In this document: in pieces, positions 3,693 to 64,000 of the stretch
How positions within the stretch are numbered: position 1 is the stretch's first letter
Layout of the letters: every line of letters begins with the position of its first letter
NCBI GenBank assembly: GCA_964016885.1
Contig: OZ024744.1
Span: 21,390,001 to 21,454,000 of the forward strand
DNA from: Eledone cirrhosa
Taxonomy: Eukaryota
Direction: 5' to 3'
Length of the DNA stretch: 64,000 nt
Program-made: the position numbers and the translations under genes
The notes under the pieces: model-generated
What the model saw: the letters and a program-made list of their open reading frames with translations, nothing else
Databases searched by the model: none
Told to the model about the DNA's origin: nothing

Positions 3693-4068
3693 GAGTCTGA
3701 ACTGACGTCTTTTTGCTCGCTCCCGTAAGTTTATTTATTTACATTTCAAAACTTATTTATTGAATTTGTTGTTGTGTAAGGCATACAAGCTCTTGGACTT
3801 TGCCCTGTGAAGGGGAAAGAATAATATTTGGGCCTTTTGGCCCAAATATTTGAACTTTTTTATATTTTAAAAAATTAACGAGAAATAAAAAAAAAAGCAT
3901 GGCTGAACCACGCCCCCACCGATATGTCTGCTGTCGTGCGACAACGACGTAAAAGTTGAGAGGAGCGCTACGGCGAAATTAATAGAAATTGATAAAACAA
4001 ACACCACCACAAACAATGTAAACCAAGACAGCAATGATAACAACACTGAGATCTCTAATTTTGAATAA

Positions 4069-5938: not shown

Positions 5939-8696
5939 GAGTAGGAAGTTCAAATGTTCGAGGCCTGGGATCATCCTAGAAGCAGGGTCACCTGCTCAAT
6001 GACCTCAGGTCTCTAGAAATGGATGTAATTGCCGTCAGCGAGATCAGGATTTCCGACACGCGCGCACTAGGCCCCATTTTCGACCACTATCAGATCTTTG
6101 CATCTGTTAGCCGGCCGGGAATGGGAGGCGGGGTGGCAGTGCTGTTTAGGAAAGGCCTGGATCTCAAGGTAAGTTTGATCTTCCGAGACCCGGACGGGAT
6201 GTTGGTGGTCCTGGACGTGAACAATAACGAAAGTAGTGCATTTAGACTGGTGGCCGTCTATGCCCCTACTTAGGCAGGACGGCCGGACTTCTTTAAACGC
6301 CTGGAAGCCTTTCTAGAAGGTTGCATTGACGGAGCTAAGGCGCGTGCTCTGAGAAACGAGGGAACCAAAGCTGTTCGATGGGCCCGCGTGGCAGAGGCGC
6401 AGCGTGGTAATAAAACCACGATTCGGTCTTTAACGGACCGAGACGGACACGAGCTGAACGATTCCAAGCGGATGTGTGAGGCCTTTCGCCAGCATTTTGC
6501 TCGGTTCTTCGGGGGGAAGTGGCGGGTCAGAGATGCTGGCGGATTTCGGTCCCTACCTCGATGGCTTCCCGCAACTCTCGACGGCCGACGCTGGGCGCTG
6601 GGAAAGGCCGATTACTTCAGCTGAGATTCAGGATGCCCTTGTCGGCTGCATGAGGTTTGGATGGTCTGCCCTACGATCTTTACGCAAATATGCCAGACTT
6701 CTTCTCCAATCTCCTCGAAGCGCTCTACTACAACTGGCAGCAGAACGCGAGTATTCCCAGTTATGTGAGCCGGGGCATAGTGACGCTGATAAAGAAAGAC
6801 GAGAACAAGAGGGACATATTAGACAACTTCAGGCCCATTACTCTGCTCATCACAGAGTTTAAGATTTTGGCTAAGGTGTTAGCGAAGATGTTCGCGCTTG
6901 TTGTCGGGGATCTGGTTGGGGAGGCGCAAATTGCGCAATCCCAACCAGGCCCATACACGACAACCTCCACCTAATGCGATACATCATAGAGAGGGTAGGG
7001 TGTAAACCTGGCTTCTGTGGGGCTCTGATCAATTTAGATCAATCGAAAGCATTCGATAGAGTCGACCATCGTACCTGGAGGCTGTCCTCAAGGCGGCTGG
7101 CTTCGGCCCCGTCTTCAGAAGCTGGATCGCTGCAATGCACAGCGGCAACTGCTCGGTGGTCAAAATTAATGGCCATCTTTCGGAACCGTTTCAGGTCTCC
7201 CGATCGGTACGTCAAGGGTGCCCTCTCTCCTCTCTTCTGTACGTATTGACTCTCGTCCATTACTGCGGAAGCTGGAGCTGTTGCAGGGCATCCCGCTCGG
7301 ACCGGGACACAGAAAGGCTGTGTCGGCTTATGCGGACGACATCACCGTGATGGTGTCGGACACCTCAGAAATCGAGGTGGTCGGCAACTTATTGGAGGAA
7401 TATGAAAGATTGACGGGAGCAAAACTTAATCCGAAAAAGTCGGTGGGCTTGCAACTCGGCACCTGGAGAGGCAAGTCCATGCCGTCCAACAGCGTCGTGG
7501 GGCGCTGGACGGACTGGACCGGTAAAGTTGCTCGGGGTTTGTTTCGCGCCAGACCTCTAGGTGGATAAGAATTGGGACGAGGTGACGGACAGGGTAGCCA
7601 GTCTCACCCAGAAATGGGCTGGGGGAAGCTAACATTGAAAGGTCGGGCGGAGGTGGCGAACACGTACAACGCGTCCCTCATCTACTACCGTCTGAGCGTC
7701 GTCCCTTTGCCCCGTTCGTGCCTCGCCATCTTGGAGCGGCTCCTCTTCAAATTCTTGTGGAGGGATCAAGTTCCGCTGTTGAGGCGGTCCATCTGCTGCT
7801 AGCACCCTCTACGTGGAGGTCTGGGCATGCCGTGGCTAATGATGCGCAGACACGCGCTGAGGCTGTGGCATCTCCAGATATTCTGCCTAAACGGTGATTG
7901 GTGTGGTCGCCGTTTGTCAGACGGGCCTTTCCGCAGCTCGTTTCTTTGACTGAGTTGCAGTCCTGGATCAAAAAGAGACCGAGACTGGCTGACTGGCATC
8001 TGGAATGTTGCCAGGCACTCACTGCCTTCTACCAGGCGGGCAATGCGGTCAGTGGAACTTCCACTCTCGAGTTCTATAGAGGATTAGTGGTGGGCGAGTG
8101 CGACGACGCACTCGGAGAGGCTCTGGGAGTCGACGAAGTCGAACTAACCAGTCTGTTCCGGAGGACTTTCGAGCCGGGGACGATGGAAAATTTCCCAAAA
8201 CCCATCGCTTGGCAATGCAACCGGGGGCACTGCCAGTTCGAGATAAACTCTACAGGCATGGAAGTGCTGTCAGACGGACCTGCCCGAGATGCGCGCAGAG
8301 CGACAAACCGTTCTGCACGCACTCGTCCAGTGTCCGTATATTACTGACTTGTGGAGTTATGTCGAACAGCTGTTGTTGCTTGTGGAACGGATGCGGCTAT
8401 CGGCCGAGTCCATAATGAAGATCGACCCACCGCCTTCTTTTGGCCTGGAAGGGCAGGCAATTTTCCTCTGTCTGGTAGCAGTAGCGAAAGAGGTTGTATG
8501 GTGGACGAGGTTGAAAGGACTGAAGACAGACACTTTTCTCTTCGGCCAATCCCTCATCAACTTTTTCAAGTTTCACTTGGAAAGGAAGGTGAGGGTGGAG
8601 AGAGAAGTGCTGCCCCCCAGTACTTTTGCTGAAAGGCGGGTGAATGCAGCGAGAATGGCCTGTGTGACTGGGCCTACTCTGGTAATGCGGCTGTAG
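5926..8696 (+). pseudogene. Tx1 copy A ORF2 (APE endonuclease-RT), stops/frameshifts and ~0.6 kb deletion at ~6315
   Basis: Starts MAVLRVGSSNVRGL; RLEAFL is joined directly to EGCI relative to copy C. Confidence 0.88.
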
Positions 8697-8962
8697 GTGG
8701 GTAAATTTGAGGAGGAGAGGGTACCCTTCCAGGGTGCTCTCGAAGCGTCGGGTCGTTCAGGATTGGTGGGGTACCTGAGCGAACCCTGGGTGTTCATACC
8801 GCCTATTTGGGGAATTTTTCTTGTATTTTTCTTGTTACTTTGTTATTGTTATTCATATTGTTTACTCGTTTTTTCTGTAAAACCCCACTGTCCCATTCTT
8901 TTGTATTGTCCCCTATATGTCTGCGCTGGTGGCCAATAAATGAAATCATTATTATTATTATT

Positions 8963-11900
8963 GGCGGCCTACGTAGGAAATCATATTATCGTGAGCTCCA
9001 CAAAGGTTTGTTGTTTTCAGTTGTTTCAAATTGCCAGTTATGGAACATTTTTGTTGTTAAGTGTTTATAACTTCATATACATTTCTTTCTGAAAAGGACA
9101 CTCAATAATATTGGGGGCCTTGAGCCCAAAATTTAATTCTTTTATATTTTTCAAACTAAAATTTCTTTGAAAAAAACATGTACGGCTTTCAGCCACACAA
9201 AGCTGACAGCCTAACATCACCCACCACCACCACCATTGTAAACCTTGCTACGGCTGCCAACACTGAAAATAAAGGTAATAGTAATGGCAATTATTTAAAT
9301 TTGTCACATGCAGACATGGATTTCCCGCCATTACCAATAACTGCAGATGTTAAAGCCGCCAACCCACAACCCCAATGTCAAAAAGAACAACCAACACCAC
9401 TGATACCACCACCACCACCACCACCACTGCGACAACAGAAACAAAAAATAAATTATTATCTCGTGACATCGAAATGGATTCACCCAGAATCGACTCTTCC
9501 ACACCGAACACCACTGACATCACCACCCCAACCACCACCACAACTGAAACTAAAAATAACAATAACAAAAATAACAATAACAACAACAGCAACAACAACA
9601 ACAATGAGAATAACAACAACATCAACACCAGTGGAAAACAAAATGTGTCGTTTACCAAAGCAGCTAAGAAAAGCGAAGCAATCGAGGTATGCCAGGATGA
9701 ATTTATTCAAGCCAAGCGAATGGTAAAAACAGATGGGTACAGGGTCAGCCTCACCCACTATCTAATAAAATGGAGCATCGGTGCCTATGCACCGTGTCAT
9801 ATCGGACGATAAACACAAAATCACGCCGAGTGGAACGGGCATCCAAGTCCCAGATACAAAAAGCTTTGGGACATGTGTAGGCGCAAAAACCCCACATCAG
9901 ACGTGGGAAGAAATATGGAACCATGGACGTGTTCTTTGGAGCCCCACAGGAAGCCAGAGAGCACTCCTTGGTCCGGATCTGGGGTGGAGCTCCTGATCCA
10001 AGTGGACCAAAAAAACACAGAGGAAATTCCAGAGGTGATAGACCTCACTGACGGCAGCCACCTCACCGTAATCGTTGAGGGTAGAAGGCCTTGGTGTGTC
10101 GTTTGTGGAGAAGGAACCCACCCAAAGCCTTTCTGCCCTCAGGCTAAAAGTTTAAGCCAACCTCTCCTACCCACCTCAGTGTCTCAACCATCAAAACCAG
10201 CAGCAGAAATGGCAGCAACCACTGTAACAGCAACAACCCAAGCAACTGTAGCAGCAACAACCCAGCAACTGTCGCAGCAACAGTAGCAAAACCACAGCAC
10301 ACCACCCACCGCGCCAGAATTAGCACCAGCGCCTACACCATCCACTACGCCACAACAAAACCAACGCCTGTGGAGGGCTTTCCACTCCCCGACCTATCGC
10401 AACTGGAGACAGGTTGTGACGGCGAGGAAGAGTGGGAAACTATCTGGAAAACAAAGAAAAAAGAAGAAACCAAAAAAGAAAAAATCCTTTTCCTTCGCCC
10501 TCCAAAAACAAAATGCAGGGTGAGAAAAGCAAACAAACAAAAAAAAGTTAAGACAGCTATGTCACCACCCACACCAGCATCACCAGCCCCATCACCACAA
10601 ATACCAACACCCTCACCATCATTAACCCCAACACCACCATCACCAACACCACAAAAATCACCAACAAGTGAAACAGAAACAAACCCACAACAAACGCAAA
10701 CAAAACAAAGCAACCAAAACGATACACACTACACAGCATTAAATTTGTACAACAATCAATTATTACACTAAATCCAACACAACACCAGCATCACAGAAAA
10801 AGACTACATGACACCCCCAAAATCCACACCAACTCCACACATACAAATCACTCTCATCACATAGAAAACGTACACGACACTAAAATTAAAATTCCCCAAG
10901 GACATCGGAGACTTCCGACAAACACTCTCCAGGAGGATTTATAAAGACATCGTTCCAGAGGGGGCCACAAGCAGTGAGAAGGACGGAAAACCATCCTTCC
11001 TCCTGAGAAGTGTGGTGAGAGGTCTTTCCCATCTTTTTCCACACCTTCTCAACATGACGTCACTCAGAATAGGCAGCCTAAATGCGCGTGGCCTGGGGTC
11101 GTCATGGAAGAAGGGCCACCTGCGCAACGATCTCAGGTCACTAAACTTAGATTTGCCATCAGCGAGACAAGAATCTCCGAAGCACAAGCCTTCGCACCGT
11201 TCTTCGGCGGCTACGATGTATACACATTTCCCAACCGTCCAGGATCGGGGGAGGAGTTGCTGTGCTTTTTCAGAGAGGTTTGGATCTCGCCATACAGGCC
11301 ATTTTCTTGGACCCAGAAGGTAAGTCGGTGGTGCTGGACGTGACGGGCAGCGAAGGCAATGCTTTCAGGCTAGTAGCCGTCTACGCACCAACAGGGGCAG
11401 GACGGCCAGATTTCTTCAGACGTCTAGAGACCTTTTTTGGAACGTCTCGCTCTTTAGTGTTAGTGGGCGACTGGAACGGTATCTTAGATGCACGCTGGGA
11501 TTATGTGGTGTTAGTAGACAGAGCATGTGGGTGTAAAAGCCTCAACAACCTGCTCAGACGTTTTGAATTGTCTGACAGGTATAGACTGGTTTATCCGAAT
11601 GTGCCAATGTGGACATGGGCAAACCGCATCGGGTCATCCAGATCGTATTTAGAGAGGGTATTCTGTAGGGAAACAGATAAGGCTAGTGTAGGTTGTCCAC
11701 AATTTAAACTAATCAACTACACAGACCACAAATTTGTGATCTGTGAAGTTGACTTAAATAGACTCCATAGGCAAGGGCCCGGCTACTGGAAGCTAAACGC
11801 GTCGTTCCCGACGCGCAAAGCTTACAGAGACCGGATTAGCGAATTAGTTAAGCGTGGTGGTTTACCCTGAAAACGGCTATTAGAGTAGCATCGATAAGGT

Positions 11901-14177
11901 TTAGCAAAGGCGGAAAATAGAATAGAGGGAGAGTTAGTTAGAAAGCAAGAAGAGGCGTTTGGGACAGGCATCGTAACCGACCTGCTTGCGGCGAGATTGG
12001 CACTCGACCAATTCTTCAACGCAAAGCATGAAGGCTGCGTTATCAGAGCTAGAGCGCGTGCTCTAAGACACAGGGGGACGAAAGCCGTTCAATGGACGCG
12101 GGTAGTGGAGGCACGGCGTAGAAACATGTCCACAATTCGGTCTTTGCCTGATCAAAACGGCCGCATATATCTGCTCGAACCCGAGCAGATATGTGCGGCT
12201 TTTCAACAGCACTTTGCTTAATTGTTCGAGAGCGGCGGCGGGCCGGATCGGAGTATGGACTTCGGTACATACCTCGACGGACTGCCGCGGCTCTCGACGA
12301 CCGCAGCGCAGTGCTGCTGAAAGCCGATAACAGCAGCTGAAATACGGGAAGCGATGTCTGACTGCACGAGGGGTAAATCGCCAGGTTTGTATGGTCTGCC
12401 CTACGAGCATTATGCGTATATGCCAGACTTGTTCGGCGACCTCTTGGCCCATGTCTCTGCAACTGGCAGCAGAACGGGAGCATTTTCAGTTTTGTGAGCC
12501 GGGGAGCTGTGGCGCTGCTGAGAAAAGACCCGAACAAGGGGGACGTTATAGACAACATCAGTCCCTTAATTCTGTTAAACGTAGAGTTTAAGATTTTGGC
12601 CAAGGTGTTAGCAAAGAGATTGGTGCTTGTCGTTGGTGATTTGGTGGGAGAGGCGCAGACATTCGCCATCTTGGACATATCCATCCACGACAACCTCCAT
12701 CTCATGCGATACATCATAGAGAGGGTGGTTAAGGAACCTGGCACGTTAAGGGGCCCTGATAACATCGATCAATCTAAAGAATTTGATATGGTCGACCATC
12801 GGTACCTGGCTGAGGTCCTCAAGGTGACCGGCTTCGGGCCCGTTTTTAGGGGCTGGATCGCTGCGATGCACAGCGACATCCACTCGATTGTGAGGGTGAA
12901 TGGTCACCTGTCGCAGCCTTTCAGCATCATGCGTTCGGTCCTCCAGAGTTGCCCCACCTCGTCCCTCTTGTACGTATTGGCCCTCGAGCCGTTACTTCAC
13001 AAATTGGAGACGATGAGGAGGATCCCACGCGAACTGGGATGCGGGGGATCCGTGTCAGCTTATGCCGACGACGTCACCGTGGTGGTGTCGAGCACCAAAC
13101 AGGTCCAGATACTCGGCTCCGCTCTCAAGGAATACGAAGCGGTGATATGAGCAAAGACGGTGGGCTTGCAACACGGCACCTGGAGACGCAAGTCCATGCC
13201 GTCCGACAAGGTCGTGGGTGGCTGGACGGAAGGACCGGTTAAATTACTCGGGGTCTGGATAGGTCCGGACCTCCAGATTGAGAGAAACTGAATCGAGGTG
13301 ACGAGAAATGGGCCGTGAGGAGGCTGGTCGTCGAAGACAATCATCTATTCGCTCTCTTCAAGAGAACTTTCAAACCGGGGCCTATGGACAACTTCCAGAA
13401 ATCTCTGGCCTGGCAGTGCTACCGGGGATCGTTGCCGGTTCGGGATTAGCTCTTCAGGCTCGGAGGTGCTATCAGCCGAGCCTGTCCGAGATGCGCGCAG
13501 GGTGACGAACCGTTCTGCACGCACTCGTTCAGTGCCCGAGGATTGCTGACATGCGGTGCTCTGTCGAACAGCTGCTGTCGCGTGTAGGACGGATCCGGTT
13601 ATCGACTGAGTCCATTGTGCAGATAGCCCCGCCATCCTCCTTTAAAGAGGAGGAAGGGCAGGCAGTTTCATCTGCCTGGTGGCCATGGCAAAAGAGATTG
13701 TGTGGTGGACAAGGTTGAAAGTGTTAAAGACGAACACTTTCCTCTCCGGCCAATCCCTCACTAACTTTTTCAAGTTTCACTTCAAGAGGAAAATCAGGGT
13801 GGAGAGGCAAGTGTTGTCTTCTAGTAAGTTTGTTGAAAGGTGGATGAAAGTGGCGACTCTGGTCCGAGTGAACGGGCCCGCTCTGAGTATGAGTCTGTAG
13901 ACTGAGGAGTGGGAAAAGTGAGAGAGTGTGCTTGTCCTGGTGGTCAGGGTAGCCGTAGTCTTTTGTGTGGTTTTCACCACGAGTGACCCTCGGAGGTTTT
14001 CCCCCTTCTTGGGGAATTTTTGTTGTTTGAATTTTTTGGATTTCTAGCCCGGTTTTGTTATAACATGTTTACACGACCAAAACCCAGTTTGTCTCGTCCT
14101 GTACTGTTCTCTGCTGTCTCTAATGTTTTTCTCCGTGTTAGCCCTTGTGGCCAATAAAGAAACTATTATTATTATTA
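8963..14177 (+). mobile_element. Tx1/L1-clade element, copy B (apparently full 5' end, decayed)
   Basis: Starts right after A's (ATT)n tail; ORF1 with EGRRPWCVVCGEGTHPKPFC; ORF2 from ATG 11054; 3' gcccttgtggccaataaagaaact(att)n. Confidence 0.92.
11054..13900 (+). pseudogene. Tx1 copy B ORF2 (APE-RT), disrupted, ~0.5 kb deletion near 13325
   Basis: MTSLRIGSLNARGL, LVGDWNG, YTDHK, GPGYWKLN, AYADD; the KWA segment is joined to VEDNHLF relative to copy C. Confidence 0.88.
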
Positions 14178-14231: not shown

Positions 14232-14427
14232 CGGTGGATTGGAAGTATCGGTAGAGGGTCGGACGCCATGCTTTCCAGCATAGTTACGTACCTTTACGTC
14301 TGAGTTCAAATCCCGCCGAGGTTGACTTTGCCTTTCATCCCTACGGGGTCGATAAAATAAAGTACCAGTAATGCACTGGGTAATTGCTGGCCTTGTGTCT
14401 AAAGTAGAAACAATTATTATTATTATT
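14232..14427 (+). mobile_element. SINE copy S3 between Tx1 B and C
   Basis: Same family as S1; (ATT)5 tail at 14413-14427. Confidence 0.88.
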
Positions 14428-14902: not shown

Positions 14903-17900
14903 CCACATCACCCGAGGTAGAAACTACGCCACAATAGACGTACTTTTCGCCACCCCCCAGGAAGCAAAGTCTCACTCTTTGGAAACCCTAAAGTGTGAGG
15001 AGATAGTATTGGTGCCCTCCTACTGAGGACAGAAAATTGTGAGGGTCAAAGTGACCCAGGTCCCACCCGACGTGCCCAACCTTGGCTAGCCGCGTCTATC
15101 CTTGCTGGAATCGAGAACAGGACGACCATGCTGCAAGTAGAAAAAATAGGGAGAGAGAACTGGTCAGGTATAGGCATGCAAATGCTTATACAAAATGACC
15201 AGGAATGTATCGACGCTATCCCCGATATCATAGACATCGAGGAAGGACTGCAGCTCCCTATAAGTGTAGAAGGAAGACAGCCAAAATGTTATCTCTATGG
15301 GTCGATGGGTCACCTCAGGGCCTTTTTCCCGCAGAAGACAGCGAAGAAGGTCCCTCTCCTTCCAATACCTGGTCCGCTGCTCCCAAGAGCAGGGCAGGCA
15401 ACAAACAAAGAAGCCCCTTCCACGGTGAGTAGGAGGGAAACGTCCGTAGCACCCGTACCAAGGCCACGGATAACTAAAGCAGCATCATCAGTAGCGGCAA
15501 CACCAATAGCTACATTTGAAGTAGCTACACCAGCAACACAATTGCTGAAGAGGGATCCACTACCACCACCAACAGCCGTGGAGCACATACCCCTCCCAGA
15601 CACCACATAATCCGACATGGAGTTTGAGGCGGGAGTGAAGTGGCAAACGGTCTGCCAAAAAAAATAAAAAAGAAAAAAACCCTTAGATTCACCCTCCAAA
15701 AGCGAAGGCATACAAAGAGGGGTAAAGGAAACTTGCAGCAACACCACCACCATCACCACCACAAACACCACTGGCAACAACAACCACACCACCACCAGCA
15801 TCACCCAAAACACCAACAACGCAAACACAAAACACACACACCCAACAGCAACAAGAAGAAAACAGCAACAAAATCACCCCTCCCCCCAAAAAGTACACAG
15901 CCATAAACATGGCAAAAAAAGAACTCCTACAATATATAAAGCAGCACACAGACATTACAGAAAAAAAAACTACTACACCCCACCAACACCAAGAACTCTC
16001 CCGACAAACATAAGCAACATTGAAATCTCAATAGAACAGTACAAACCTTTAAAACAAAAATTCCCCAACGCAGTTGGGGACTTCAGAGGGTCGGTTACCA
16101 AGAGGATATACACTGACATCCTCTAGGAAACACCCATGACCAGTGAAAGGGACGGTTCTACTGACGGTTCTCATCCAACATGGCCGTACTCAGAATAGGC
16201 AGTATAAATGCACGTGGCCTGGGGTCATCTTGGAAGCAGGGTCGCCTGCTCAACGACCTCAGATCACTAAACATAGATGTGGTGGCCATCAAAGAAACGA
16301 GAATCTCCGAAGCACAAGCCTTCGCACCGATATTCGGCGGCTACGATGTATACGCATCTCCCAGCCGTCCAGGATCGGGGGGAGGGTTTGCCGTGCTTTT
16401 TCGGAGAGGTTTGGATCTCGCGATACGGGCCATCTTCCTAGACCCAGAAGGTAAGTCGGTGGTGCTGGACATGACCGGAAGCGAAGGCAATGCTTTCAGG
16501 CTGGTAGCCGTCTACGCCCCAACAGTGTCAGGACGGCCAGATTTCTTCAGACGTCTAGAGACCTTTCTTGGAACGTCCCGCTCTTTAGTGTTAGTGGGCG
16601 ACTGGAACGGTATCTTGGATGCACGCTGGGATCGTGTGGGGCTAGTGCATAGGGGAAGAGGGTGCAAGAGCCTCATCAACCTTCTCAGACGTTTTGAATT
16701 GTCTGACAGGTATCGACTGGATCACCCGAATGTCCCAATGTGGACATGGACAAACCGCATCGGGTCATCCAAATCGTATCTAGATAGGGTATTCTGCAGA
16801 GAACTAGATAAGGCTAGTATAAGTAGTCCACAATTTAAAATAGTCGACTACACAGACCACAAATTTGTGATCTGTGAGATCGACATAGACAGACTTCATA
16901 GACAAGGGCCTGGTTACTGGAAGCTGAACCATTCTTTCCCCGCGCTAAAAGCCTACAGAGACCGGATTAGCGTATTAGTTAAGCGGGCGTTGACGGGAGC
17001 GATCGTCAACATCATGGGGTGGTTCGCCCTGAAAAGGGCAATTAAAGTAGAGTCGATTAGGTTTAGCAAAGGAGTAGTGATATAGGAAAATAGAGTAGAG
17101 GGAGAGCTAGTCAGAAAGCTAGAAGAGGCGTTTAGGACAGGCATCGCAACCGACGTTCTGTGGCGAGATTGGCACTCGACCAATTCTTCAACGCAAAACA
17201 CGAAGGCTGAGTTGTCAGAGCTAGAGCGCGGGCACTGAAACACGAGGGGACAAAAGCCGTCCAATGGGCCCGGGTGGCAGAGGCGCGACGTGGCAAGAAA
17301 GCCACAATTCGGTCTTTGTCTGACCAAAACGGATGCGTGATGCTCGAACCCGAGCGGATGTGTGAAGCTTTTCAGCAGCACTTTGCTGAACTGTTCGGGA
17401 GCGGCGGCGGCCCGGATCGGAGCATGAACTTCACTGCATGCCTCGACGGACTGCCTCGGCTCTCGACGACGGCAGCACAGTGTTGCGAAAAGCCAATAAC
17501 AGCCGATGAAATACGGTAAGCTAACTGCACAAGGGGTAAATCGCCAGGTTTGGATGGTCTACCCTACAAGCTTTATGCATTTATGCCAGACTTGTTCGGT
17601 GACCTCTTGGCAGACGTCTACTGCAACTGGCAGCAGAACGGGAGCATTCCCAGTTTTGCGAGCCTGGGAGCAGTGGCGCTGCTGAGAAAAGACCCGAACA
17701 AGGGGGATGTTATCGATAATTTCAGGCCCATAACCCTGCTAAACGCAGAGTTCAAGATTTTGGCCAAGGTGTTAGCAACGATTGGCGCTTGTCGTCAAGG
17801 GTCTGGAGGGAGAGGCGCAGACATGCCGCATTCCTGACAGATCCATACACAACAACCTCCACCTCATGCGATACATCATAGAGAGGGTGGTTAAGGAACC

Positions 17901-19834
17901 CTGCAAGGGTGGGGCCCTGATCAACTTGGATCAATCCAAAGCATTAGATAGGGTCGACCATCGGTACCTGGCAGCGGTCCTCGAGGCAGCCCGTTTCGGG
18001 CCCGTTTTCAGGGGTTGGATCGCAGCAATGTACAGCGACATCTGCTCAGTTGTGAGGGTGAACGGTCACCTGTCGCAGCCGTTCAGCATCATGCGCTCAG
18101 TCCGCCAGGGTTGTCCCCTTTCGTACCTCTTGTACGTATTGGCCCTCGAGCCGTGACTGCACAAACTGGGGGCGATGAGGGGCGTCCCAAGCGAACTAGG
18201 GTGTGGGAAATCCGAGTCGGCTTCCGCCGACGACGTCACCGTTGTGGTATCGAGCACCAGACACGTCCACATACTCGGCACCGCTCTCAAGTAATACGAA
18301 ACGGTGACAGGAGCAAAGATAAACCAGGAAAAGTCGGTGGGCTTGCATCTCGGCACCTGGAGAGGCAAGTCCATGCCGTCCGACAGCGTCGTGGTGCGTT
18401 GGACGGACGGACCGGTTAAAGTGCTTGTGGTCTGGTTCGGACCGGACCTTCAGATGGAGAAAAACTGGAACGAGGTGAAGAGCAGGGTGGCCTCCCTCAC
18501 CCAGAAATGGGCTGAGAGGAAGCTGTCCCTGAAAGGCCGGGCGGAGGTGGCGAATGCGTACATCGCATCCGTCATCTGCTACCACCTCACCGTCGTCCTC
18601 TGCCCCGGCACAACTCTCACCAAAATGGAGCGCCTCCTCTTCCGCTTTTTGTGGAAGGGACGCGCTCCCATGGTCAGACGATCCATCTGCTGTCAACATC
18701 CGTTGCGTGGAGGACTGGGCATGCCATGGCTGATGATGCGCAAACATGCGCTGAGGCTGGACATCTCTGGTCCTTCCTTGATGGTGAACAGGTGTGGTCG
18801 CCGTTCGCCAGGCACATTTTCCCACCGCTGCAGTCCTGAGTTATGAAAAGACCGAGGGATAGCGCTTGGAAACTGGAATGTCTCCAGGCGCTCACTGCCC
18901 TCTCTCAGCTGGGCACCAGTTTCGGTGGAACATCCACCTCGGCGTTCTACAGAGGACTAGTGGAGGGGAAGAGCAACGACATTTTCGGAGAGATCCTGGG
19001 CGTCGAAAAAGATCAGCTGTTTGCTCTCTTCCGGAGAACTCTCAGCCCGGGGCCTATGGATAACTTCCAAAAATCCCTGGCCTGGCAGTGCTACAGGGGA
19101 GTGTTGCCGGTTCGAGATAAGCTCTACAGGCACGGAAGTGCCGTCAGCCGAGCCTGTCCGAAACCGTCGTGCACGCACTCGTTCAGTCCCCGAGCATTGC
19201 TGACTTGTGGAGCTATGTCGAACAATTGCTGTCGCGTGTTGGACTGATCCGGTTGTCGACTGAGTCGATTGTCCAGATGGTCTCGCCGTCTTCCTTCGAG
19301 GAGGAATGGCAGGCGGTTTTCATCTGCCTGGTGGCCATGGCGAAAGAGATTGTGTGGTGGACAAGGTTAAAAGGGTTAAAGACAGACACTTTCCTCTTCG
19401 GCGTATCCCCAATTAACTTTTTCAAGTTTCACTTGAAGAGGAAAATCAGGGTGGAGAGGCAAGTACTGCTTTCTAGCAAGTTTGTTGAAAGGTGGGTGAA
19501 TGTAGCGAGAATAGCCCGAGTGAACGGGACCACTCTGAATATATGTCTGTATTGAGAGAGGGCGCTTGCCCTGGTGGTCAGGGTGGCCGTGGTCTTTGTG
19601 TGGTTTTCGCCACGAGTAACCCTCGGTGGTTTCCCCCCTATTGGGGAATTTTTCATTGTTTCAATTTTCATTTTTATTGTTTATATATATGTATCTATTT
19701 CCTTTTTCTTTCTTTTCTTATATAAATGATAAAAATATTTACACGCACAAAACCCACATCGTACCGTCATGTACCGTCCTGTGCCGTCTGTAATGTTTTT
19801 CTTGATATCAGCCCTTGTGGCCAATAAAGAAATC

Positions 19835-20765: not shown

Positions 20766-21007
20766 TTTCTTTATTAACCACAAGGGTTTACATAAAGTAG
20801 ACATTAAGGACAGTGCAGGACAATGCAGGACGGTACAAATGGGCATTTCTGCGTGTAAAAAACAAAAACAGAGAATGTAACAAAAATAACAATGAAAATA
20901 ACAATGAAAAATTCCCCAATAGGGGGGAGACTTCGGAGGGACATTTGTGGATAAAGCCCAGTAAAAGGCCCCAATGACCCTGACCACCAAGGCAAGTGCC
21001 CTTTAAT

Positions 21008-24000
21008 TTACAGATATATACTCAGAGTAGGCCCATTCACTCGGGCAATTCTTGCTTCTCTCACCCATCTTTCAACAAAATGCTGGGAAGAGAGCACTTC
21101 CCTCTCTACTCTGATTTTCCTTTTCAAATGAAATTTGAAAAAGTCAATCAGAGCATCACCGAAGAGGTAAGTGCTCGTCTTTAGCCCTTTCAAACGTGTC
21201 CACTATACTATCTCTTTCGCCATGGCCACCAGACAGATACAAACTACCTGCCCTTCCCGGCTAAAGGAGGAGGGCGGGGCAATCCTCACGATGGACTCAG
21301 ATGATAGCCGGATCCGTCCTACACGCGACAGCAGGTGTTCGACATAAACCCACAAGTCAGCAATTTTCGGACACTGGACGAGTGCGTGCAGGACGGTTTC
21401 GTCGCCCTACGCGCATCTCGGACATGCCCGGCTGACGGCACCTCCATGCCTGCAGAGTTTATCCCGAACTGGCAAGGCTCCTCGGTAGCACTGCCAGGCC
21501 AGAGATTTCTGGAAGTTGTCCATAGGCCCTGGCCCGAAAGTTCTTCCGAAGAGATTGGTTAGTTGATTTTCGTCGACGCCTAGAGTTTCCCCAAGTACGT
21601 CGTCGCTCTTCCCCTCCACTAATCCTCTATAGAACGCCGAGGTGGAGTTTCCACCGATCACATTGCCCGATTGGTCGAGGGCTGTGGGCGCCTGAAGACA
21701 TTCCAGTCTCCAGGCGCTCCCTCTCGGTCTTCGCTTGGCCCAGGACTGCAGCTCTGTCAAGGAAACGAGCTGGGGAAATACGTGTCTAGCAAACGGCGAC
21801 CACACCTGAACACCGTCGAGGAAGAGGTGGAGATGTCGTAGCCTGAGCGCGTGCCTGCGCATCATCAGCCCTCCACGTAGCGGGTGTTGACAACAGATGG
21901 ACCGCCTGACCATCGGAGCGCGTCCCTTCCACAAAAAGCGAAAGAGCAAATGCTCCAGCGCAGTCAGGCGAGGCTTAGGACAAGGTACGACGGTCAGGCG
22001 GTAGCAGATGACGGACGCGATGTACGCGTTAGCCACCTCCGCTCGACCTTTCAGGGATAGCTTCCTCTCCGCCCATTTCTGGGTGAGAGAAGCCAACCTG
22101 CTCGTCACCTCGTCCCAGTTTTTGTCCGTCTGGAGGTCCGGACCGAACCAGACCCTTAGCAATTTAACCGGTCCAGCTGTTGGACGGCATGGACCTGCCT
22201 CTACACGTGCCGAACTGTAGGTCCACTGACTTTTCCTGGTTGATCATTGCTCTTGTCACCGCTTCGTATTCTCTTAGTGTAGTGCCGATCGCCTCGATGT
22301 GTTTGGCGTTCGACACTACTACGGTGACATCGTCCGCATATGCTGACACGGATCTTCCGCATCCTAGTTCGCGCGGGATGCCCCTCAACGTCTCCAGTTT
22401 GTGCAGTAATGGCTCGAGAGTCAATACGTACCGAGCGCATGATTTTGAACGGTTCCAAAAGGTGACCGTTCACTCTCACCACAGAGCAGATGTCGCTGTG
22501 CATGGCAGCGATCCAGCCTCTGAAGACGGGCCCAAAGCCAGCAGCCCTCAGCACTGCCACTAGGTAACGATGGTCGACCCTATCGAAAGCTTTCGACTGA
22601 TCTAAATTGATCAAGGAACCCACCCGTGCCAGGTTCCCTAGCTACCCTCTCTACGATGTATCGCATGAGGTGGAGGTTGTCGTGGATGGATCTGTCGGGA
22701 ATGGCGCATGTCTGCGCCTCTCCCACCAGACCACCAACGACAAGCACCAACCTCTTTGCTAGCACCTTGGCCAAAATCTTGAACTCTGTGTTTAGCAGAG
22801 TTATGGGCCGGAAATTATCTATGTTATCCCCCTTGTTCGGATCCTTTCTCAGCAGTGCCACCGCTCCTCGACTCACAGAACTGGGAATTCTCCCGTTCTG
22901 TTGCCAGTTGCAGTAGACGTCCGCCAAGAGGCCTCCGAACAAGTCTGGCATCTGTACGTAAAGTTCATAGGGCAGACCATCCAAACCAGGCTATTTACCC
23001 CTTGTGCAGCCAGTCATTGCCTCCCTTACTTCAGCGGCTGTTATCGGCTTTTCGCAACACTTCGCCTCAGTGGCCGAGAGCCGCGGCAATCCGTCGAGGT
23101 AGACACTAAAGTCCATCCCTCGACCCGGCCCACCGCTGCCCCCGAACAGCTGAGCGAAGTGTCGCTGAAAAGCTTCACACATTTGCCCGGGATCGAGTAG
23201 CATGCGTCCGTCGTGGTCCACCAAAGACCGGATCGTGGTTTTGTTGCCACGACATGCCTCCGCCACTCGGGCCCGTTGAACGGCTTTCGTCCCCTCGTGT
23301 CTGAGAGCACGCACCCATGCTCTGACAACGCTGCCTTCGTGCTTTGCATTGAAGAATTGGTCAAGGGCCAATTTCGCTGAAAGCACGTCGGTCGCGATGC
23401 CTTCGCTAAGCGCCTCGTCTAATGTTCTAACTAGTTCTCCCTCTGCTCTATTTTTCTCTATTGCTAAAGCCTTACTAAACCTAATCGATTCTATTCTAAT
23501 CGCTCTTTTCAGAGCAAACTACCACTTGTTGTTGACGATGGCCCCCGTCAACGCCCGCTTAACTAGTTTGCTAATCCGGTCTCTGTAGGCCTTGCGCGCT
23601 GGTAAGGACGCGTTTAGCTTCCAGTAGCCTGGTCCTCGTCTATGAAGCCTATCTAAGTCAAGCACACAGATCACGAATTTGTGGTCCGTGTAGCTGAATA
23701 TCTTGAATTGTGGACAGCCTATGCTAGACCTATCTATTTCCCTACAAAATACTCTATCTAGATATGATCTGGATGACCCTATGCGATTTGGCCAAGTCCA
23801 CATTGGCACATTCGGGAAATCCAATCGGTACCTGTCAGAGAGTTCAAAACGCCTGAGCAGGTTGGTGAGGCTCTTGCACCCTCCTCCCCTATCCGCTAAT
23901 CACACACAGTCCCAGCGTGCATCTAAGATCCCGTTCCAGTCGCCCACTAACACTAAAGAGCGGGGCGTTCCAAGAAAGGTCTCCAGACGCCGGAAGAAAT

Positions 24001-24361
24001 CAGGCCGCCCTGCTCCTGTCGGGGCATAGACGGCCACTAGCCTGAAAGCTTGCCCGTCTCCGCTGGTCACGTCCAGCACCACCAACTTACCCCCTGGGTC
24101 CAGGAAGATGGCCCGTATGGCGAGATACAAACCTCTCCTAAAAAGCAAAGCGACTCCTCCCCCCGATCCAGGACGGCTTGGAGATGCGTACATATCGTAG
24201 CCGCCGAAGATCGGTGCGAAGGCCCGTGCTTCGGAGTTTCCGGTCTCGCTGATGGCCACTACATCTATGTTTAGTGACCTGAGGTCGTTGAGCAGGTAGC
24301 CCTGCTTCCATGACGACCCCAAGCCACGCGCATTTCTGCTGCCTATTCTGAGTGAGGTCAT
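21008..24361 (-). pseudogene. Tx1 copy D ORF2 (APE-RT-zinc motif), frameshifted
   Basis: MTSLRIGSRNARGL, GDWNG, YTDHK, NFRPITLLN, DQSKAFDRVDH, AYADD, RACPRC. Confidence 0.9.
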
Positions 24362-24395
24362 GTTGAAATGGAGTGGAAAAGATGGGAAAGACCAC

Positions 24396-26400
24396 TTACC
24401 GTACTTTTCGTAGAGGAAGGATGGTTTCTCCATCCCTTTTCACTTGATCATCTGGTGAAGAGACCGTTGAATCGTCCCTTCGGCTGGTTGTTGGCTCTTC
24501 TATGAGTATGTCCGAATATTCTCTCCGGTTGAGAGTCCCTCCTAGGTCTCTGAAATCACCAACTGCGTTGGGGAATTTCGTTTTGATGTTTGTGTATTGT
24601 TTCTGTGCTATTCTTACCAGTCTTATGTTCGTTCGTGTTTTGATTGGTGCTGGTATTATGTAGTCGTGCTGTGAAATGTCTGTGTGTTCAATTATGTAAG
24701 TCATTAGTTTCTTGTTGTGTGTATTTATTGCCGTGCATTTGTTTTTTCTGGGGGTGGGGTGTGGTTCTGCTATTTTCCTGTCGTTGTTGCTGGGTGTGTG
24801 TGTTTTGTTGTTGTGTTTGCGATGTTGGTGCTTGTGGTGGTGGTGTTGAAGGTGTTGTTGTTGTTGGCGGTGGGGTTGTCGCCGGTGGTGATGGTGGTGC
24901 TAGTGTGGGTGGTGATGGTGTTGGTGGTGTTGCTGCTGTGAGTCTCTTTGCAGTAGCCTTTACCCTTTTTTCATTTCTTTCCTCACTTTTCGAAGGCGAC
25001 GATGCGCTGCTTCTGCGTTTGTGCCTTCTTACGACCTTTTGCCATCCCTCTCCCACCTCACACTCCATTCAGATTCTGTGAGGTCGGGGAGGGATACCAG
25101 CTCCACTCTTTCACTTCTTGTTGTTGGTGATGTTTGCACTGGAGTCTCTGTTGCAGCTGCATTTGGTATTGCTGTTGTTGTTGTTAATACTTCCACAGCT
25201 GCTGCTGTTCTTGATTTCCGTGGTGTGGGTATGGGTGCCACGGACCTATCGTTCCTGGTTGCTGCTTGTCCTGTTGCTGGTAGCCGTGGAGCCGGTTTCG
25301 GAAGCAGGGGCGTTTTCTCCTTTCTCAGGGTCTTCTCGTTGCAGAAGGCCCTGAGGTGGGTCTTCGATCCACAGCGAAAGCATTTCGAGCGTTTGCCCTC
25401 AACACTTATGGGCAGTTGAGTGCCGTTGTCGAAGTCTATAACATCGGGGATAGCTTCGATGCACTCCTGGTTGGTTTGGATTAACATCTCAATGGAGGTG
25501 CCGACCAAATCTTCTCTTACTCTTTTCTGTAATTGCAGTACAGTTGTTTTGTCCTCGATTCCGACGAGGACAGACGCGGCCAGCCAAGAAGGGGCCATCC
25601 CGGGGGGGGGGATCAGTTTGACCCTTACAATTTTTTGCCCGCAGTAGGAGGGCACCAACACCATTTCCTCGCTCCTTAGGGTCTCTAAGGATTGAGCTTT
25701 TGCCTCCTGGGGTGTGGCAAAAAGCACGTCTACGTGCCTCGGCTGATGTGCGTTTTCCGCTGCCACACAGACCCTAAGGCTTTTTGTATTTGAGCCTCTG
25801 TGGCTCTTTCAACCCTACGGGATTTTGTGCTTACTCTACGGTACGTGACCGTACAGTGCTGTTGGGTTTCGAAAAAGTTTTCGGGTGCCTTGCAGATTGC
25901 TCGGTGTCCAGTTTTTGTCACCATCTTCTTCGCTTCCTTTAATTCCTCATTTGTTATGAGGATTGTTTCCAGGTTCTTCGCGATACCTGCAAACGAGATT
26001 GGTCTTTTTTTGCTGCTGTTGTTGTTGTTGTTGTTGTCGTCAGAGCTGCTGTTACTTTTGTTGTTGCTGCAGGTACTGCGACTACTGCCGCCGCCGCTGC
26101 TGCTGCTGTGGTTGTTGTTGTTGTTGTTGCTGCTGCTGCTGCTGTTTTTGTTGCTGCTAATGCTGTTGTTGTTTATGCTGCTGCTGATGCTGTTGCGGCT
26201 GCTACTGTTGTTTTCCTTGTCACTGTTGCTGCTACTGCTATTATTCCTGACGTCAGACGAATGAAATGGGTTTTCGTATTTCCCGCACACCTTTTTCGTC
26301 GTTGTCGTCGTCGTTGTGGAGAAATATTGCACGCTTTGCACGTGATTTTTCTTTTCTGGCGTCGCTTGCGAAAGAGAAGGGAGGGAGAGAGACACATTTA
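24396..26400 (-). pseudogene. Tx1 copy D ORF1 with intact CX2CX4HX4C knuckle, frameshifted
   Basis: ORFs 25730-26548, 25029-25766, 24688-25068 and 24396-24704; true start uncertain. Confidence 0.78.
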
Positions 26401-26721
26401 GAGAAGGGACGGAGAGAGACAATCTTCTCTCTGCTGTAGTGACGATTGAGGAAGAAGAAGACGGAATGAGTGGGAGTGACCTATGAAAATTATTTTTCGT
26501 AGCTATGTTTTTTTTTTGTTTAAAATAAATATTGGGCACAAAACACAAATAAGCGGTTATTTAACCCCGAAGGGCCAAATAACGGGCAGAAAGACCCCTC
26601 TCACGAGGAGGAGGGTGTTTTTGTCTACAATTTGGTTAAAGTTTTAAACAATTTACAATTGTTATAGCGGTCAACATTTACAATACCTTACAGAGCCGAG
26701 CCTCCGTCAACCATAGCACTC

Positions 26722-26722: not shown

Positions 26723-26754
<32 letters not shown>

Positions 26755-59444: not shown

Positions 59445-61916
59445 AGATAGATTGATAGATAGATAGATAGATAACTTTCTTTTTATTTGCCACCAGGGCA
59501 GCAAAAAGTGGGAGAAGTACAATGGCGGGAGTTTACATGAAAATGCGTCCTCAATAAGGAGGAGGCAATAACAAAATATTAAAATAAAATAAAATATAAC
59601 AAAATAAATGTTATAACAAAATCCTCAATAGGGAGGTGGCGCCTTGGGGGGTCGCACACACCCCCGAAAAAAGTGTGCAACCCTTCTCCTCAGGAGCACA
59701 GAGAGAGGGTGCTCCCTTGATCTTTCATCTTCCTCACCAATAGTCTGATGTAGAGTGAAGGCCCATTCACAAGGGCCATTCTCGCCACTTTCACCCATCT
59801 TTCATAAAAAACGGCTGGGGTACAGTACCTCTCTCTCCATCCTCATCCTTCTTCCGAAATGATATCGGAATAAACGGACCAGTTGTTGGCCAGAGAGAAA
59901 GGTGTCTGACCTCAGTCCTTTCAGACGCGTTCACCATACAACCTCTTTCGCCATGGCTATTACGCACAGAAACACCGCCTCTCCTTCGTTTTTGAAGAGG
60001 GGAGGCGGCTTGATCGTTACAATAGACTCGGTGGTCAACCGGATCGGCCCCACCCTTGACAGCAGTTGTTCGACATAGCCCCACAGATCGGCAATGCCCG
60101 AGAAGTGTACCAATGCGTGTGCAACGGTTTCCTCGTGACACGCATCTGGGACAGATCTTTTTCGAGTGGTCCCTACCCGGGCGCCCGTGTCTGTAGAGCC
60201 TTTCTCGAACGGGCAGAGCCCCTCTGTAGCACTGCCAGGCCAGGGACCTCTGGAAGTTATCCATGGGTCCCGGGCTGAATGTCCTAGCGAACAGGTTGGC
60301 CAGCTCGTCTTCCTCCATGCCTAGGGCTTCTCTGAGGGCATCGTCGCACCTGCTAACCACCAGCCCTCTATAGAATGACGAGGTGGATTCTCCACTGACA
60401 GCCGGGTCCGTCTGCCAGAGAGCCGTGAGCGCCTGGGCACACTCGGTGTGCCAGGCGCCCAGTTTTCTCGGTCTTTGCTTGACCCAGGATTGCAGCTCGG
60501 TGAGCGAGACGAGTCCGGGAAAGGCTCGCTTAACAAACGGGGCCCACACCGGTTGACCGGTGAGGAATACCTGGAGGTGCCGTAGCCTTAATGCGTGTTT
60601 ACGTATCATTAGCCACGGCATCCCCAGCCCCCCCCCTTTCGAAGGGTGTTAACAGCAGATGAATCTCCTCACCATAGGAGCTCGCTTCTTCCAAAGGAAT
60701 TGGAAGAGTGCGCGCTCCATTTTGGCGAGCGTTTCTCTTGGGCAAGGCACAACGGTCAGGCGGTAGTAGATGACGGACGCTATATAAGTGTTCGCCACCT
60801 CCGCCCGACCTTTCAGGGACAGTTTACACTCGGCCCACTTCTGGGTCAGTGCAAACACCCTGTTCGTTACCTCACCCCAGTTCTTCTCCACCTGGAGGTC
60901 TGGTCCGAACCAGACCCCGAACAACTTCACCGGGCCCTCCGTCCAGCCCCCGACGACGCCATCGGAGGGCATCGATCTGCCCCTCCACGTGCCGAGTTGC
61001 AGACCGATCGACTTGTCCCGGTGCAGCTTAGCCCCTGTAAACCTTTCGTACACCTCCAGTAAGGTACCGATCGCCCCGATTTCTGAGGCCGTCGACACCA
61101 TTACTGTTACGTCATCGGCGTAGGCCGACACCGCTTTCCGCAAGCCCGTCAACCGCTCCTTAACTGAAGTGCTAATCCGGTCCCTTACTTGGCGGTAAGG
61201 ACAAGTTGAGCTTCCAGTAACCGGGTCTCTGTCTATGCGTTCTGTCAAGGTTGACCATGCAGCTCACTAACTTGTGGTCTGAATAGCCAACCATGCGCAT
61301 TTTTGGACAACTTAAAAAGTCCTTATCCTTATTTCTAACTAAGAACCTATCTAGGTACGACCTAGATGATCCGCTCAGGTTTGCCCAAGTCCATGTTGGC
61401 GCAGTCGGAAAATCTAGTCGATATCTATCGACCAGGTCAAATCGACCGATTAACCCTTTGAGGCTATTACACCCCTCTCTATCGGGACAGGCCCCTACGT
61501 AGTCCCAGCGTCAATCTAGGATACCATTCCAGTGCCCCACTAATAGCAAGGAGCGGGACGTCCCTAGAAAAGTCTCCATACGATGGAAGAAGTCCGGCCG
61601 CATTGACCCGAAAGGGCCGTAGACGGCTACCAACCTAAACGCTCCGCCTTCACCACTGCCAAGGTCCAGAACCACTAGTCGACCCTCCGGGTCCAAATGT
61701 ACCGTCTGTGTTGCGAGACCCAGATGTTTTTGCAGCAGAATGACAACCCCACCCCCACTCCGGGCTGACAGAGAGACGCGTGCATCTCAAAGTCATCAAA
61801 GGTGGGGACCAGCTGTCGCACGTTGCTGATCCGGGCCTCGCAAATAACCATCACATCGTTGTGACCTGAGGTCATTTAGAAGCATTGCTTGCTTCCAAGT
61901 TGAGCCCAGGCAACGC
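59445..61916 (-). mobile_element. Tx1/L1-clade element, copy F: 5'-truncated at the APE start, ~1.2 kb RT deletion, (TCTA)n tail
   Basis: FRLVAVYGP, VGHWNG, ERLTG fused to LRKAVSAYADD, KICPRC; tail (GATA)n at 59445-59473 on +. Confidence 0.9.
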
Positions 61917-64000
61917 AGATAGATAGATAGATAGATAGATTAATAGATATATAGATATGTTTCTTTATTTGCCAGAAGGGAGCACAGGAAATGGGACATT
62001 ACAAGACGTGACGGCGGGGGTTTTACATAAAAATAACTTTAACATTAATAAATAACAATAAACTATATATAATAAAATAAGAATTGAAATCCCCAATAGG
62101 AGGGAATGTTACTGCAAGGTTGTTTTACACCCCGTGTATAGAACAACCCTTATCACCAGGAACACATTTTGTAGGTCTTCCCGTCTTCCCTCTGTTTATC
62201 TTCCTCAACCTACAGAGAAGACCCAGTCACTCGGGCCATTTTCACCATATTCACCCACCTTTCAGCGAATTTACTGGGGTGTAGCACCTCTCTCTCCACG
62301 CTTGGAAGTGGTACTTAAAGAAGGGGATCAGTTGTTGTCCAGAGAGAAGGGTGTTTGCCCTCAATCCTTTTAACCTTGTCCACTATATTACCTCTTTCAC
62401 CATAGCCACCAACAGAGGTAAACCGCCTCTCCTTCATTCTTAAATGAAGGCGGCGGGGTGATCCTCACGATGGACTCGGCTGACAACTGGATACGTCTCA
62501 CACGTGACAGTAGCTGTTGGACATAATTCTACAGGTCGGTCACCCTTGGGCACTGAACAATTGCATGCAGAACGGTTTCGATGTCCTGCTCGCATCTTGG
62601 ACAGATCCTTTTGGCAGGATCTCTGCCAGGGCGTCCGTGCCTGTAGATTTTGTCTTGAACTAGTAGAGCTCCTCGGTAGCACTGCCAGGCCAGAGACCTC
62701 TGGAAGTTATCCATAGACCCTGGACGGAAAGTCCTCCCGAACCAACTGCCTAGAGTTTCCCCGAGAACGTCGTCGCATTTATCCTCCACTAATCCCCTGT
62801 AGAATGTCGAACTGGAGTCTCTGCTGATTGCCGTTTCCGCTTGGTAGAGGGCTGTGAGCGTCTGAAGGCACTCGAGGTGCCAGGCACGAATTTTCGGTCT
62901 TCGCTTGACCCAGGACTGCAGCTCTGTTAGTGAGACGAGTTGTGGAAGAGCTTTCTCACTAACGACAGCCACACCGGTCCACCGGTCAGGAACACCTGGA
63001 GATGGCGTAGCCTCAGCGCGTGTTTGCGCATCATCAGCCACCGCAAGCCCAGCCCTCCATTAGAAGGGTGTTGACAGCAGGTGGATCTCCTCACCAATGG
63101 AGCCTGTTTCTTCCAGAGGAACTTGAAGAGTAGGCGTTCCATTTTGGTGAGGTATTCGCGGGGACAAGGCACGACTGTCAAGCGCTAGTAGATGACGGAC
63201 GCTATGTAAGTGTTCGCCACCTCCGCTCGACCTTTTAAGGAGAGTTTACACTCACCCCGCTTCTGGATAAGTGCAAACATCTTCGCCATGACCTCGTTCC
63301 AGTTCTTGTCCACCTGGAGGTCTGGACCAAACCAGATCCCGAGCAATTTCACCGGTCCTTCCGTCCAGCGTCCAACGTCACTGTCGGAATGCATGGGTTT
63401 GCCTCTCCATGTGCCGAGTTGCAAACCGACAGACTTGTTTGGGTTTAGTCTTGCTCCTCTCAACGTTTCGTATTACTGTAATAGGTTGCTGATTACCCCA
63501 ATTTCCGAGGTTTTCGACACCATTACACTTATGTCGTCGGCATAGGCCGACGCCGCTTTCCGCAGTCCTGGTTCGATCGGGATGCCCTGCAACAGCTCCA
63601 GCTTCCGCAGTAACGGCTCGAGAGTCAGTACATACAGAATGGAGGAGGGAGGGCACCCCTAACGGATGGAACGCATGACTTGGAATGGCTCCGATAGGTA
63701 GCCATTCACTTTGACTGCCGAGCAGATGTTGCTGTGCATGGCAGCGACCCAGCTTCTGAAGACGGGACCGAAACCGGCCGCCTGCCTTGAGAACCGCTTC
63801 CAAGTATTGATGGTCGACCCTATCAAAGGTTGTCGTGTATGGACCTGGTCGGGATTGCACACGTTTGTGCTTCCCCTACCAGGTTCTCAACAGCAAGCTC
63901 CAGCCTCGCTGCTAGCACCTAGGCCAAACTCTTTAACTCTGTGTTGAGCAGAGTTATGGACCTGAAATTGCTTATCTCAACCCCCCTTGTTCTCTCTTTC
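61917..64000 (-). mobile_element. Tx1/L1-clade element, copy G (runs off window), (TCTA)n tail
   Basis: FDRVDH, GLQLGTWRGK, LKGRAEVAN, RICPRC..HAIVQC; AATAAA then degenerate (TCTA)n 61917-61957 abutting F's 5' end. Confidence 0.9.

What the first reader, a model, noticed from the sequence alone, without database searches (positions are those of the whole stretch)
59445..64000. Sister Tx1 lineage stacked on a different microsatellite, (TCTA)n: apparent target switch
Seen: F and G are clearly homologous to A-E but end in (TCTA)n, and truncated F starts immediately after G's (TCTA)n tail (61916/61917). Both share a diagnostic insertion before the C-terminal zinc motif (HGRPGRDHSKKICPRC / HGRPGRDPAKRICPRC versus HGSAVRRTCPRC), and F's APE differs (AVYGPFG versus AVYAPTG). 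Inference: close relatives partition microsatellite niches, giving a natural comparison for mapping target-specificity determinants. Only two copies support this here.
Basis: partly seen in the sequence, partly recalled or inferred. Interest (0 to 1): 0.75.

Follow-up and report, generated by a model that had tools for sequence, protein, structure and literature searches.

The report
Retrotransposon lineage switched its landing repeat
The two broken jumping-gene copies belong to a group with over 13,000 copies in this animal genome that sits at TATCT sites, mostly in (TCTA)n repeats, and likely arose once from relatives that sit in (ATT)n repeats; such repeat-seeking elements are a known kind, but this set would allow a test of how they pick a site.

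Summary
F and G are 5'-truncated L1/Tx1-type LINEs of two different families (73% identical). Elements with the 4-residue zinc-knuckle insertion end at (TCTA)n in 119 of 148 copies; those without it end at (ATT)n in 43 of 51. The repeat is a target, not just a tail: it also lies at 5' truncation points (33 of 75 unstacked copies, background 0.7%), and target duplications start 2 bases after the element end. No stacked pair mixed the two types (0 of 54). Corrections: the TCTA group is nested among ATT families, not their sister (AU p=0.007). AVYGPFG marks family F only; G has AVYAPTG like A-E. The insertion also occurs in a nested family (about 350 copies) that sits in a MITE minisatellite. Six or more families share (TCTA)n, so niche partitioning is not the rule. 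No determinant residue stood out. Closest known: Kibi/Koshi, crocodilian Tx1, Xenopus Tx1L. This scan has already noted both switches on other DNA of this genome.

The parts
59446..59473 (-). (TCTA)n flank at F's 3' end, starting 2 bases after the terminal AATAAA...GAAA motif; likely target sequence or target duplication
   Evidence: duplication offset from other copies
59476..61916 (-). Element F: 5'-truncated L1/Tx1-type LINE, starts near the beginning of the endonuclease, about 1,180 bases deleted at about 61145, 94-95% identical to a full-length family member
60142..60189 (-). F zinc-knuckle region with the 4-residue insertion (HGRPGRDHSKKICPRC)
61607..61627 (-). F endonuclease motif AVYGPFG, specific to family F
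61917..61957 (-). (TCTA)n tract: G's 3' flank and F's 5' junction
61960..64000 (-). Element G, 3' part; continues about 1.3 kb past the window (to G000:C28:21455297), truncated inside the endonuclease, which reads AVYAPTG; its 5' flank is a degenerate trinucleotide array, not (TCTA)n
62592..62639 (-). G zinc-knuckle region with the insertion (HGRPGRDPAKRICPRC)
   Evidence: zf-RVT match E=3e-4, below Pfam cut-off
3695..8945 (+). Comparison element A: full-length 5' end, internal deletion, (ATT)n on both sides
8963..14162 (+). Comparison element B, stacked after A's (ATT)n
14903..19832 (+). Comparison element C, 5'-truncated, (ATT)n on both sides
20766..26721 (-). Comparison element D, stacked after E's (ATT)n
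26754..30664 (-). Comparison element E, 5'-truncated, A-like family

Best explanation
F and G are decayed copies of two families in a large clade of L1/Tx1-type LINEs whose copies end at the motif TATCT(AT) in one orientation, mostly inside (TCTA)n, likely because their endonuclease nicks there, and the clade likely arose once from (ATT)n-targeting ancestors. Shown: repeat type follows the tree, the repeat flanks both ends, target duplications of mostly 14-21 bases start at the motif, and copies stack only behind copies of the same type. Inferred: target-primed reverse transcription from a nick at the motif; each insertion duplicates target, which lets later copies such as F land behind earlier ones such as G. 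After the one switch the clade radiated into six or more families on the same target, and one nested family later moved to a site (ACTCTATATA) in a 72-base minisatellite of a TTAA-flanked MITE that matches the TCTA site at 7 of 10 positions. The zinc-knuckle insertion arose on the same branch as the first switch and is a lineage marker; a causal role is untested.
For: 3' ends: insertion-type 119 of 148 TCTA and 1 called ATT; non-insertion 43 of 51 ATT and 0 TCTA. Subset found without regard to tail: 36 of 49 and 38 of 46, no cross. Held-out loci: 19 of 24 and 3 of 3. 5' junctions: unstacked truncated 33 of 75 TCTA and 7 of 30 ATT, none crossed (Fisher 5e-8); full-length 8 of 9 and 12 of 12; background 0.7% and 0.44%. 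Duplications with non-repeat content in 21 of 202 copies, 11 starting exactly 2 bases after the end, against 0-8 in 20 shuffles. Stacks: 0 of 54 mixed. Genome-wide, of 20,584 ends with one 16-base motif, 13,060 continue TATCT, 3,431 ATTAT and 354 ACTCT. Trees: insertion clade support 100 in RT, endonuclease, C-terminal and whole-ORF2 trees; all 15 outside proteins lack the insertion. Endonuclease-led targeting is established for Tx1L (PMC1950540 passages).
Against: 42 of 75 unstacked truncated insertion-type copies, 23 of 30 ATT-type and 8 of 11 held-out copies have no repeat at the mapped 5' junction, G itself included; later rearrangement, mapping error or loose specificity are not separated. 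Only 21 of 202 copies show an informative duplication. No residue change stands out: 22 fixed ATT/TCTA differences are spread over the protein (6 endonuclease, 3 linker, 6 RT, 7 C-terminal), and the hairpin loop is identical in the MITE family and a TCTA family. The long endonuclease stem (0.28 against 0.094 in RT) is matched by ratios of 2-3 on branches without a switch. Direction rests on outgroups at about 40% identity with a long-branch warning; endonuclease and C-terminal trees alone leave the base open. No nicking or transcript data.
Confidence: 0.8

Rival explanations
1. The RNA 3' end chooses the site: transcripts run past AATAAA into the flanking repeat, and the carried repeat anneals to a matching nick made by a loosely specific endonuclease, so a switch needs little protein change.
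For: Copies end 6-8 bases after AATAAA; no poly(A) was seen in the 3' flanks printed. No endonuclease change stands out and the hairpin is shared across the second switch. PMC1950540 (passages) says factors beyond nicking, such as RNA-target pairing, may select sites.
Against: Duplications that depart from the repeat within the first bases are the same on both sides (L142, L169, L314), so the 3' flank is target-derived there. The one MITE-family copy that looked as if it carried its own target has the MITE at its 5' side and a later insertion at its 3' side. This can act together with the best explanation.
Confidence: 0.25
2. The repeat is an element-made tail (slippage, as recalled for CR1/L2-type tails) with random insertion, and stacks come from template jumping between RNAs.
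For: Over half of unstacked truncated copies lack the repeat at the 5' junction; template jumping would give head-to-tail stacks.
Against: Unstacked copies truncated at many different positions have the repeat 5' at about 60 times background; full-length copies 20 of 21; duplications begin at the start of the 'tail'; stacks join families 73% identical, such as G and F.
Confidence: 0.05
3. Close relatives diverged in target because they compete, and so partition microsatellites, with the zinc-knuckle insertion or the AVYGPFG loop as the determinant.
For: No mixed stacks (0 of 54); insertion and first switch map to one branch; four family-specific changes lie in or beside the insertion in the MITE family.
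Against: At least six families share (TCTA)n and stack on each other; G has AVYAPTG; the insertion persists in the family with a different target.
Confidence: 0.1

Closest known systems
Kibi (TC)n and Koshi (TTC)n, teleost Tx1 clade; crocodilian Tx1-1_Crp group on (TTCC)n/(TTTC)n (PMC4494074 passages and section 15; PMC3812793 passages; the original 2004 paper was not read)
   Same: APE-RT LINEs; related families on different microsatellites; passes the paper's rule of more than 20% of flanks of one type.
   Different: Targets are (TCTA)n and (ATT)n; host is likely an octopod (nearest named protein Argonauta hians, 64%); over 10^4 copies; three targets in one genome. No Kibi or Koshi sequence was available, so kinship to them is untested.
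Xenopus laevis Tx1L in Tx1D, a non-autonomous piggyBac element (PMC4494074, PMC1950540 passages)
   Same: ORF2 29% identical over 979 residues; the nested family here sits at one base of a TTAA-flanked element with terminal inverted repeats.
   Different: F and G use a short repeat motif, not a unique site; ORF2 is about 1,150 against 1,308 residues; the MITE-targeting family derives from microsatellite-targeting ones.
Waldo (ACAY)n, Mino (AC)n, Dong (TAA)n (PMC3812793 passage)
   Same: Non-LTR elements that insert into microsatellites; Dong uses the same repeat as the ATT families.
   Different: Other clades (R1 and R4, recalled); not compared by sequence here.

Membership tests
APE-type non-LTR retrotransposon (L1/Tx1 type) | ORF2 with endonuclease, RT and C-terminal zinc motif | tested here: met
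   Open ORF2 in relatives L124 and L145: PF03372, PF00078, PF13966; F and G hold broken pieces.
APE-type non-LTR retrotransposon (L1/Tx1 type) | ORF1 upstream with a zinc knuckle | tested here: inconclusive
   580-residue ORF1 in L124; zf-CCHC E=0.007, below the cut-off; absent from F and G by truncation.
APE-type non-LTR retrotransposon (L1/Tx1 type) | 5' truncation and target-site duplication | tested here: met
   Most copies truncated; informative duplications in 21 of 202, against 0-8 shuffled.
Tx1 clade | RT phylogeny groups with Tx1L rather than with L1 | tested here: inconclusive
   Similarity favours Tx1: 299 bits to Xenopus Tx1 ORF2 against 183 bits to human L1 ORF2p. No tree with L1-clade references was built.
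Target-specific Tx1 family (rule in PMC4494074) | One sequence type in more than 20% of flanks | tested here: met
   3' 119 of 148; unstacked truncated 5' 33 of 75; full-length 5' 8 of 9.
Target-specific Tx1 family (rule in PMC4494074) | Endonuclease nicks the target specifically | not testable with these tools
   Needs purified protein.
Kibi/Koshi lineage | Target is (TC)n or (TTC)n | tested here: not met
   Flanks begin TATCT or ATTAT.
Kibi/Koshi lineage | Clusters with Kibi/Koshi in an RT tree | not tested
   No named Kibi or Koshi sequence was returned.

The most novel reading that the evidence does not exclude
One genome holds an ordered series of two target switches in one LINE lineage, ATTAT to TATCT to a MITE site sharing the TCTAT core, with young copies that keep an open ORF2. 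The switches come from a few endonuclease surface changes (hairpin tip I to S/T and SR to CQ for the first; a W in the loop after YAP for the second) or from target sequence carried on the RNA, so a handful of swaps would show how sequence specificity evolves in these enzymes.
Probability: 0.3. Interest if true: 0.7.

Novelty: new member of a known kind. Interest (0 to 1): 0.42.

Why it matters
How APE-type LINEs choose microsatellites is called poorly understood in PMC3812793 (passage), and loop grafts between distant enzymes gave non-modular results (PMC1950540 passages). Families here are close (F is 75% identical to G, 71% to an A-type copy and 84% to the MITE family over the RT end), have thousands of insertion sites, and some copies keep an open ORF2, so swaps should be easier to read. 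The stacking also explains part of how repeats and LINE piles grow in this genome. The lifestyle itself and target shifts among Tx1 relatives are already described.

Tried and rejected
First junction mapping ran across stacked elements and was discarded; one search was replaced by mapping on full-length reference copies. A too-strong de-duplication (24 of 63 and 6 of 27) merged distinct young copies; one search is the one reported. AVYGPFG as determinant: rejected. Insertion as (TCTA)n marker: rejected. Faster endonuclease evolution at the switch: not distinct from other branches. Family-specific residues in the MITE family (6 in the endonuclease) are no more than in families that did not switch (0-11). 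RNA-carried target in copy L218/L301: not supported. TSD of F itself cannot be fixed inside a repeat. Pfam on 12 other window frames gave nothing above cut-off. No structure prediction and no read data were run. Literature searches found no paper on Tx1 elements at (TCTA/GATA)n or in cephalopods by target; Repbase and subscription journals were not searchable, and supplements of PMC4494074 and PMC13282606, which may list such families, were not opened.

Full report
Observation. The window lies in a 3.0-Gb genome at G000:C28:21390001-21454000. F (minus strand, 59476-61916) and G (61960 onward) are LINE pieces with RT (YADD at 61122 and 63544) and the stated zinc-knuckle motifs. Each ends in AATAAA...GAAA, two further bases and (TCTA)n, and F starts right after G's repeat. 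A-E end in (ATT)n and align with F and G at 65-73%. F and G are 73% identical to each other and 94-95% and 90% identical to other copies of their own families. F lacks about 1,180 internal bases. G runs 1.3 kb past the window, is truncated in the endonuclease, has AVYAPTG there, and has no (TCTA)n at its 5' junction.

Scale. One 16-base end motif occurs 20,584 times (control 9) and the A/E version 4,493 times. Of the 20,584, 13,060 continue after two bases with TATCT, 3,431 with ATTAT and 354 with ACTCT. These patterns miss F-type ends, so they are lower bounds.

Repeat type and phylogeny. A DNA tree of 132 copies over the C-terminal region separates 28 copies without the insertion (100/100), none with a TCTA tail, from all insertion-bearing copies. 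I then mapped 263 ends on 25 reference copies; 251 chained, 222 passed 100 bases and 78% identity, and 209 remained after removing duplicates. Insertion-type copies: 119 of 148 TCTA, 28 other, 1 called ATT (it begins TATCT). Non-insertion copies: 43 of 51 ATT, 8 other, 0 TCTA. Part of this sample came from similarity searches with F and G (the query included the tail). The subset found by end motif alone gave 36 of 49 and 38 of 46 with no cross, and 19 further loci fetched afterwards gave 19 of 24 and 3 of 3.

Target or tail. If the repeat were only a tail, 5' truncation points would have random flanks. Unstacked truncated copies have their own repeat at the 5' junction in 33 of 75 (TCTA) and 7 of 30 (ATT) cases and never the other repeat (Fisher 5e-8); full-length copies in 8 of 9 and 12 of 12; stacked truncated copies in 35 of 41 and 0 of 2. 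Background is 0.7% and 0.44% of 40,184 flanking 24-mers. Held-out unstacked truncated copies gave 3 of 11. Duplications with non-repeat content were found in 21 of 202 copies, against 0-8 in 20 shuffles (shuffled pairs were counted only within a group, so the control is somewhat low); 11 start exactly two bases after the end motif, most are 14-21 bases. Several hold only one TATCT unit (L169, L314), so the recognised site is likely a short motif, not the array. Against: more than half of unstacked truncated copies show neither repeat nor duplication at the mapped junction. Of 54 stacked pairs none mixes types, while TCTA families stack freely on each other.

Direction. I used per-copy translations stitched across frameshifts on the numbering of an open ORF2 (L124); this drops insertions and leans slightly toward that reference. 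With outside proteins, the RT and whole-ORF2 trees give (B/C/D, (A/E, insertion clade)) with support 99 and 100. ATT monophyly is rejected (AU p=0.0069). All 15 outside proteins lack the insertion, including the Argonauta hians protein at 64%. So the TCTA group is likely derived, once. The endonuclease and C-terminal trees alone do not resolve the base, and the tool warned that long branches meet; three distant proteins were left out of those trees and of the whole-ORF2 tree.

A second switch. A family with HGSLGRDPLNKICPRC is nested among TCTA families (TCTA-only monophyly rejected, p=0.0002). Found by its zinc motif (214 exact matches), 29 of 30 copies continue at the same base of a 72-base minisatellite and the 30th has it at its 5' side; six of the 30 are one tandem cluster. 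The minisatellite lies in a 204-229-base (one unit) element with TTAA ends and inverted termini; its left end occurs 9,249 times and 28 of 30 examined showed no LINE within 1.5 kb. The site ACTCTATATA matches TATCTATCTA at 7 of 10 positions. Calling the element piggyBac-like rests on the TTAA ends (recalled).

Determinants. The segment that aligns with the L1 and Tx1L hairpin (its role from PMC1950540 passages) reads NRIG in ATT families (one of five C copies has T) and NRSG or NRTG in the others, but is the same in the MITE family and family H. Twenty-two positions are fixed between ATT and TCTA families, 6 in the endonuclease (47, 55, 62, 63, 229, 235), with no concentration; the MITE family has 19 own changes, 6 in the endonuclease, within the range of families that did not switch. 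These are candidates only.

Mechanism. Most likely (0.8) the endonuclease nicks at the motif and primes reverse transcription; the second nick about 16 bases on duplicates the target, and later copies land in the duplicated repeat, as F did behind G. The nicking step is inferred from Tx1L. RNA-carried target could contribute (0.25): no poly(A) was seen in the flanks printed, but I found no copy where the RNA overwrote the target.

Known and new. PMC4494074 (passages and section 15) and PMC3812793 (passages) describe Tx1 families on (TC)n, (TTC)n, (TTCC)n and (TTTC)n and Tx1L in a piggyBac element. ORF2 here scores 299 bits to Xenopus Tx1 and 183 to human L1; no tree against L1 was built. Six searches found no paper with these targets; PMC13282606 (passages) lists 13 recently active L1-Tx1 families in Octopus vulgaris, and the word target does not occur in its main text. 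Repbase and supplements were not seen. Earlier notes of this scan report the GATA families and the MITE family on other DNA of this genome; I read them after my own tests and they are not independent support. Verdict: real, a new member of a known kind, useful as a test set; interest 0.42.

Noticed in passing
L111, L114, L122-L124, L128, L133, L139-L141, L201-L230: Young nested family (median 98.9% identity, open ORF2 in L111, L122, L124) at one base of a 72-base minisatellite in a TTAA-flanked MITE; full-length copies all start 65 bases into a unit, far longer than the usual duplication, so part of the unit may be carried on the RNA.
   Followed up: partly
L121-L124 (G000:C1:4.22-4.26 Mb): Six head-to-tail full-length copies of that family, about 5.7-7 kb apart, separated by one to several minisatellite units.
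   Followed up: partly
window 40727-44478: Degenerate trinucleotide array (TRF unit TAC, about 1,250 copies) that produces long spurious open frames; a similar array lies at G's 5' junction beyond the window.
   Followed up: no
window about 52209, minus strand: A second kind of RT fragment (FADD motif), not of this family; no Pfam hit on the neighbouring frames tested.
   Followed up: partly
window 14300-14430 and many ATT-type loci (e.g. L174, L176, L178): A short repeat ending in AAAGTAGAAACAATTATT often sits at or inside ATT-type elements; earlier notes call it a partner SINE.
   Followed up: no
L145:1508-5008: TCTA-type family F2 has an open 1,167-residue frame and near-identical copies (L144, L170, L319), a candidate for assays.
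   Followed up: partly
L116 (5.7 kb upstream of the G-type end) and L157: Endonuclease fragments of further F-like families with other loop sequences (AAYASFG), not placed in the trees.
   Followed up: no
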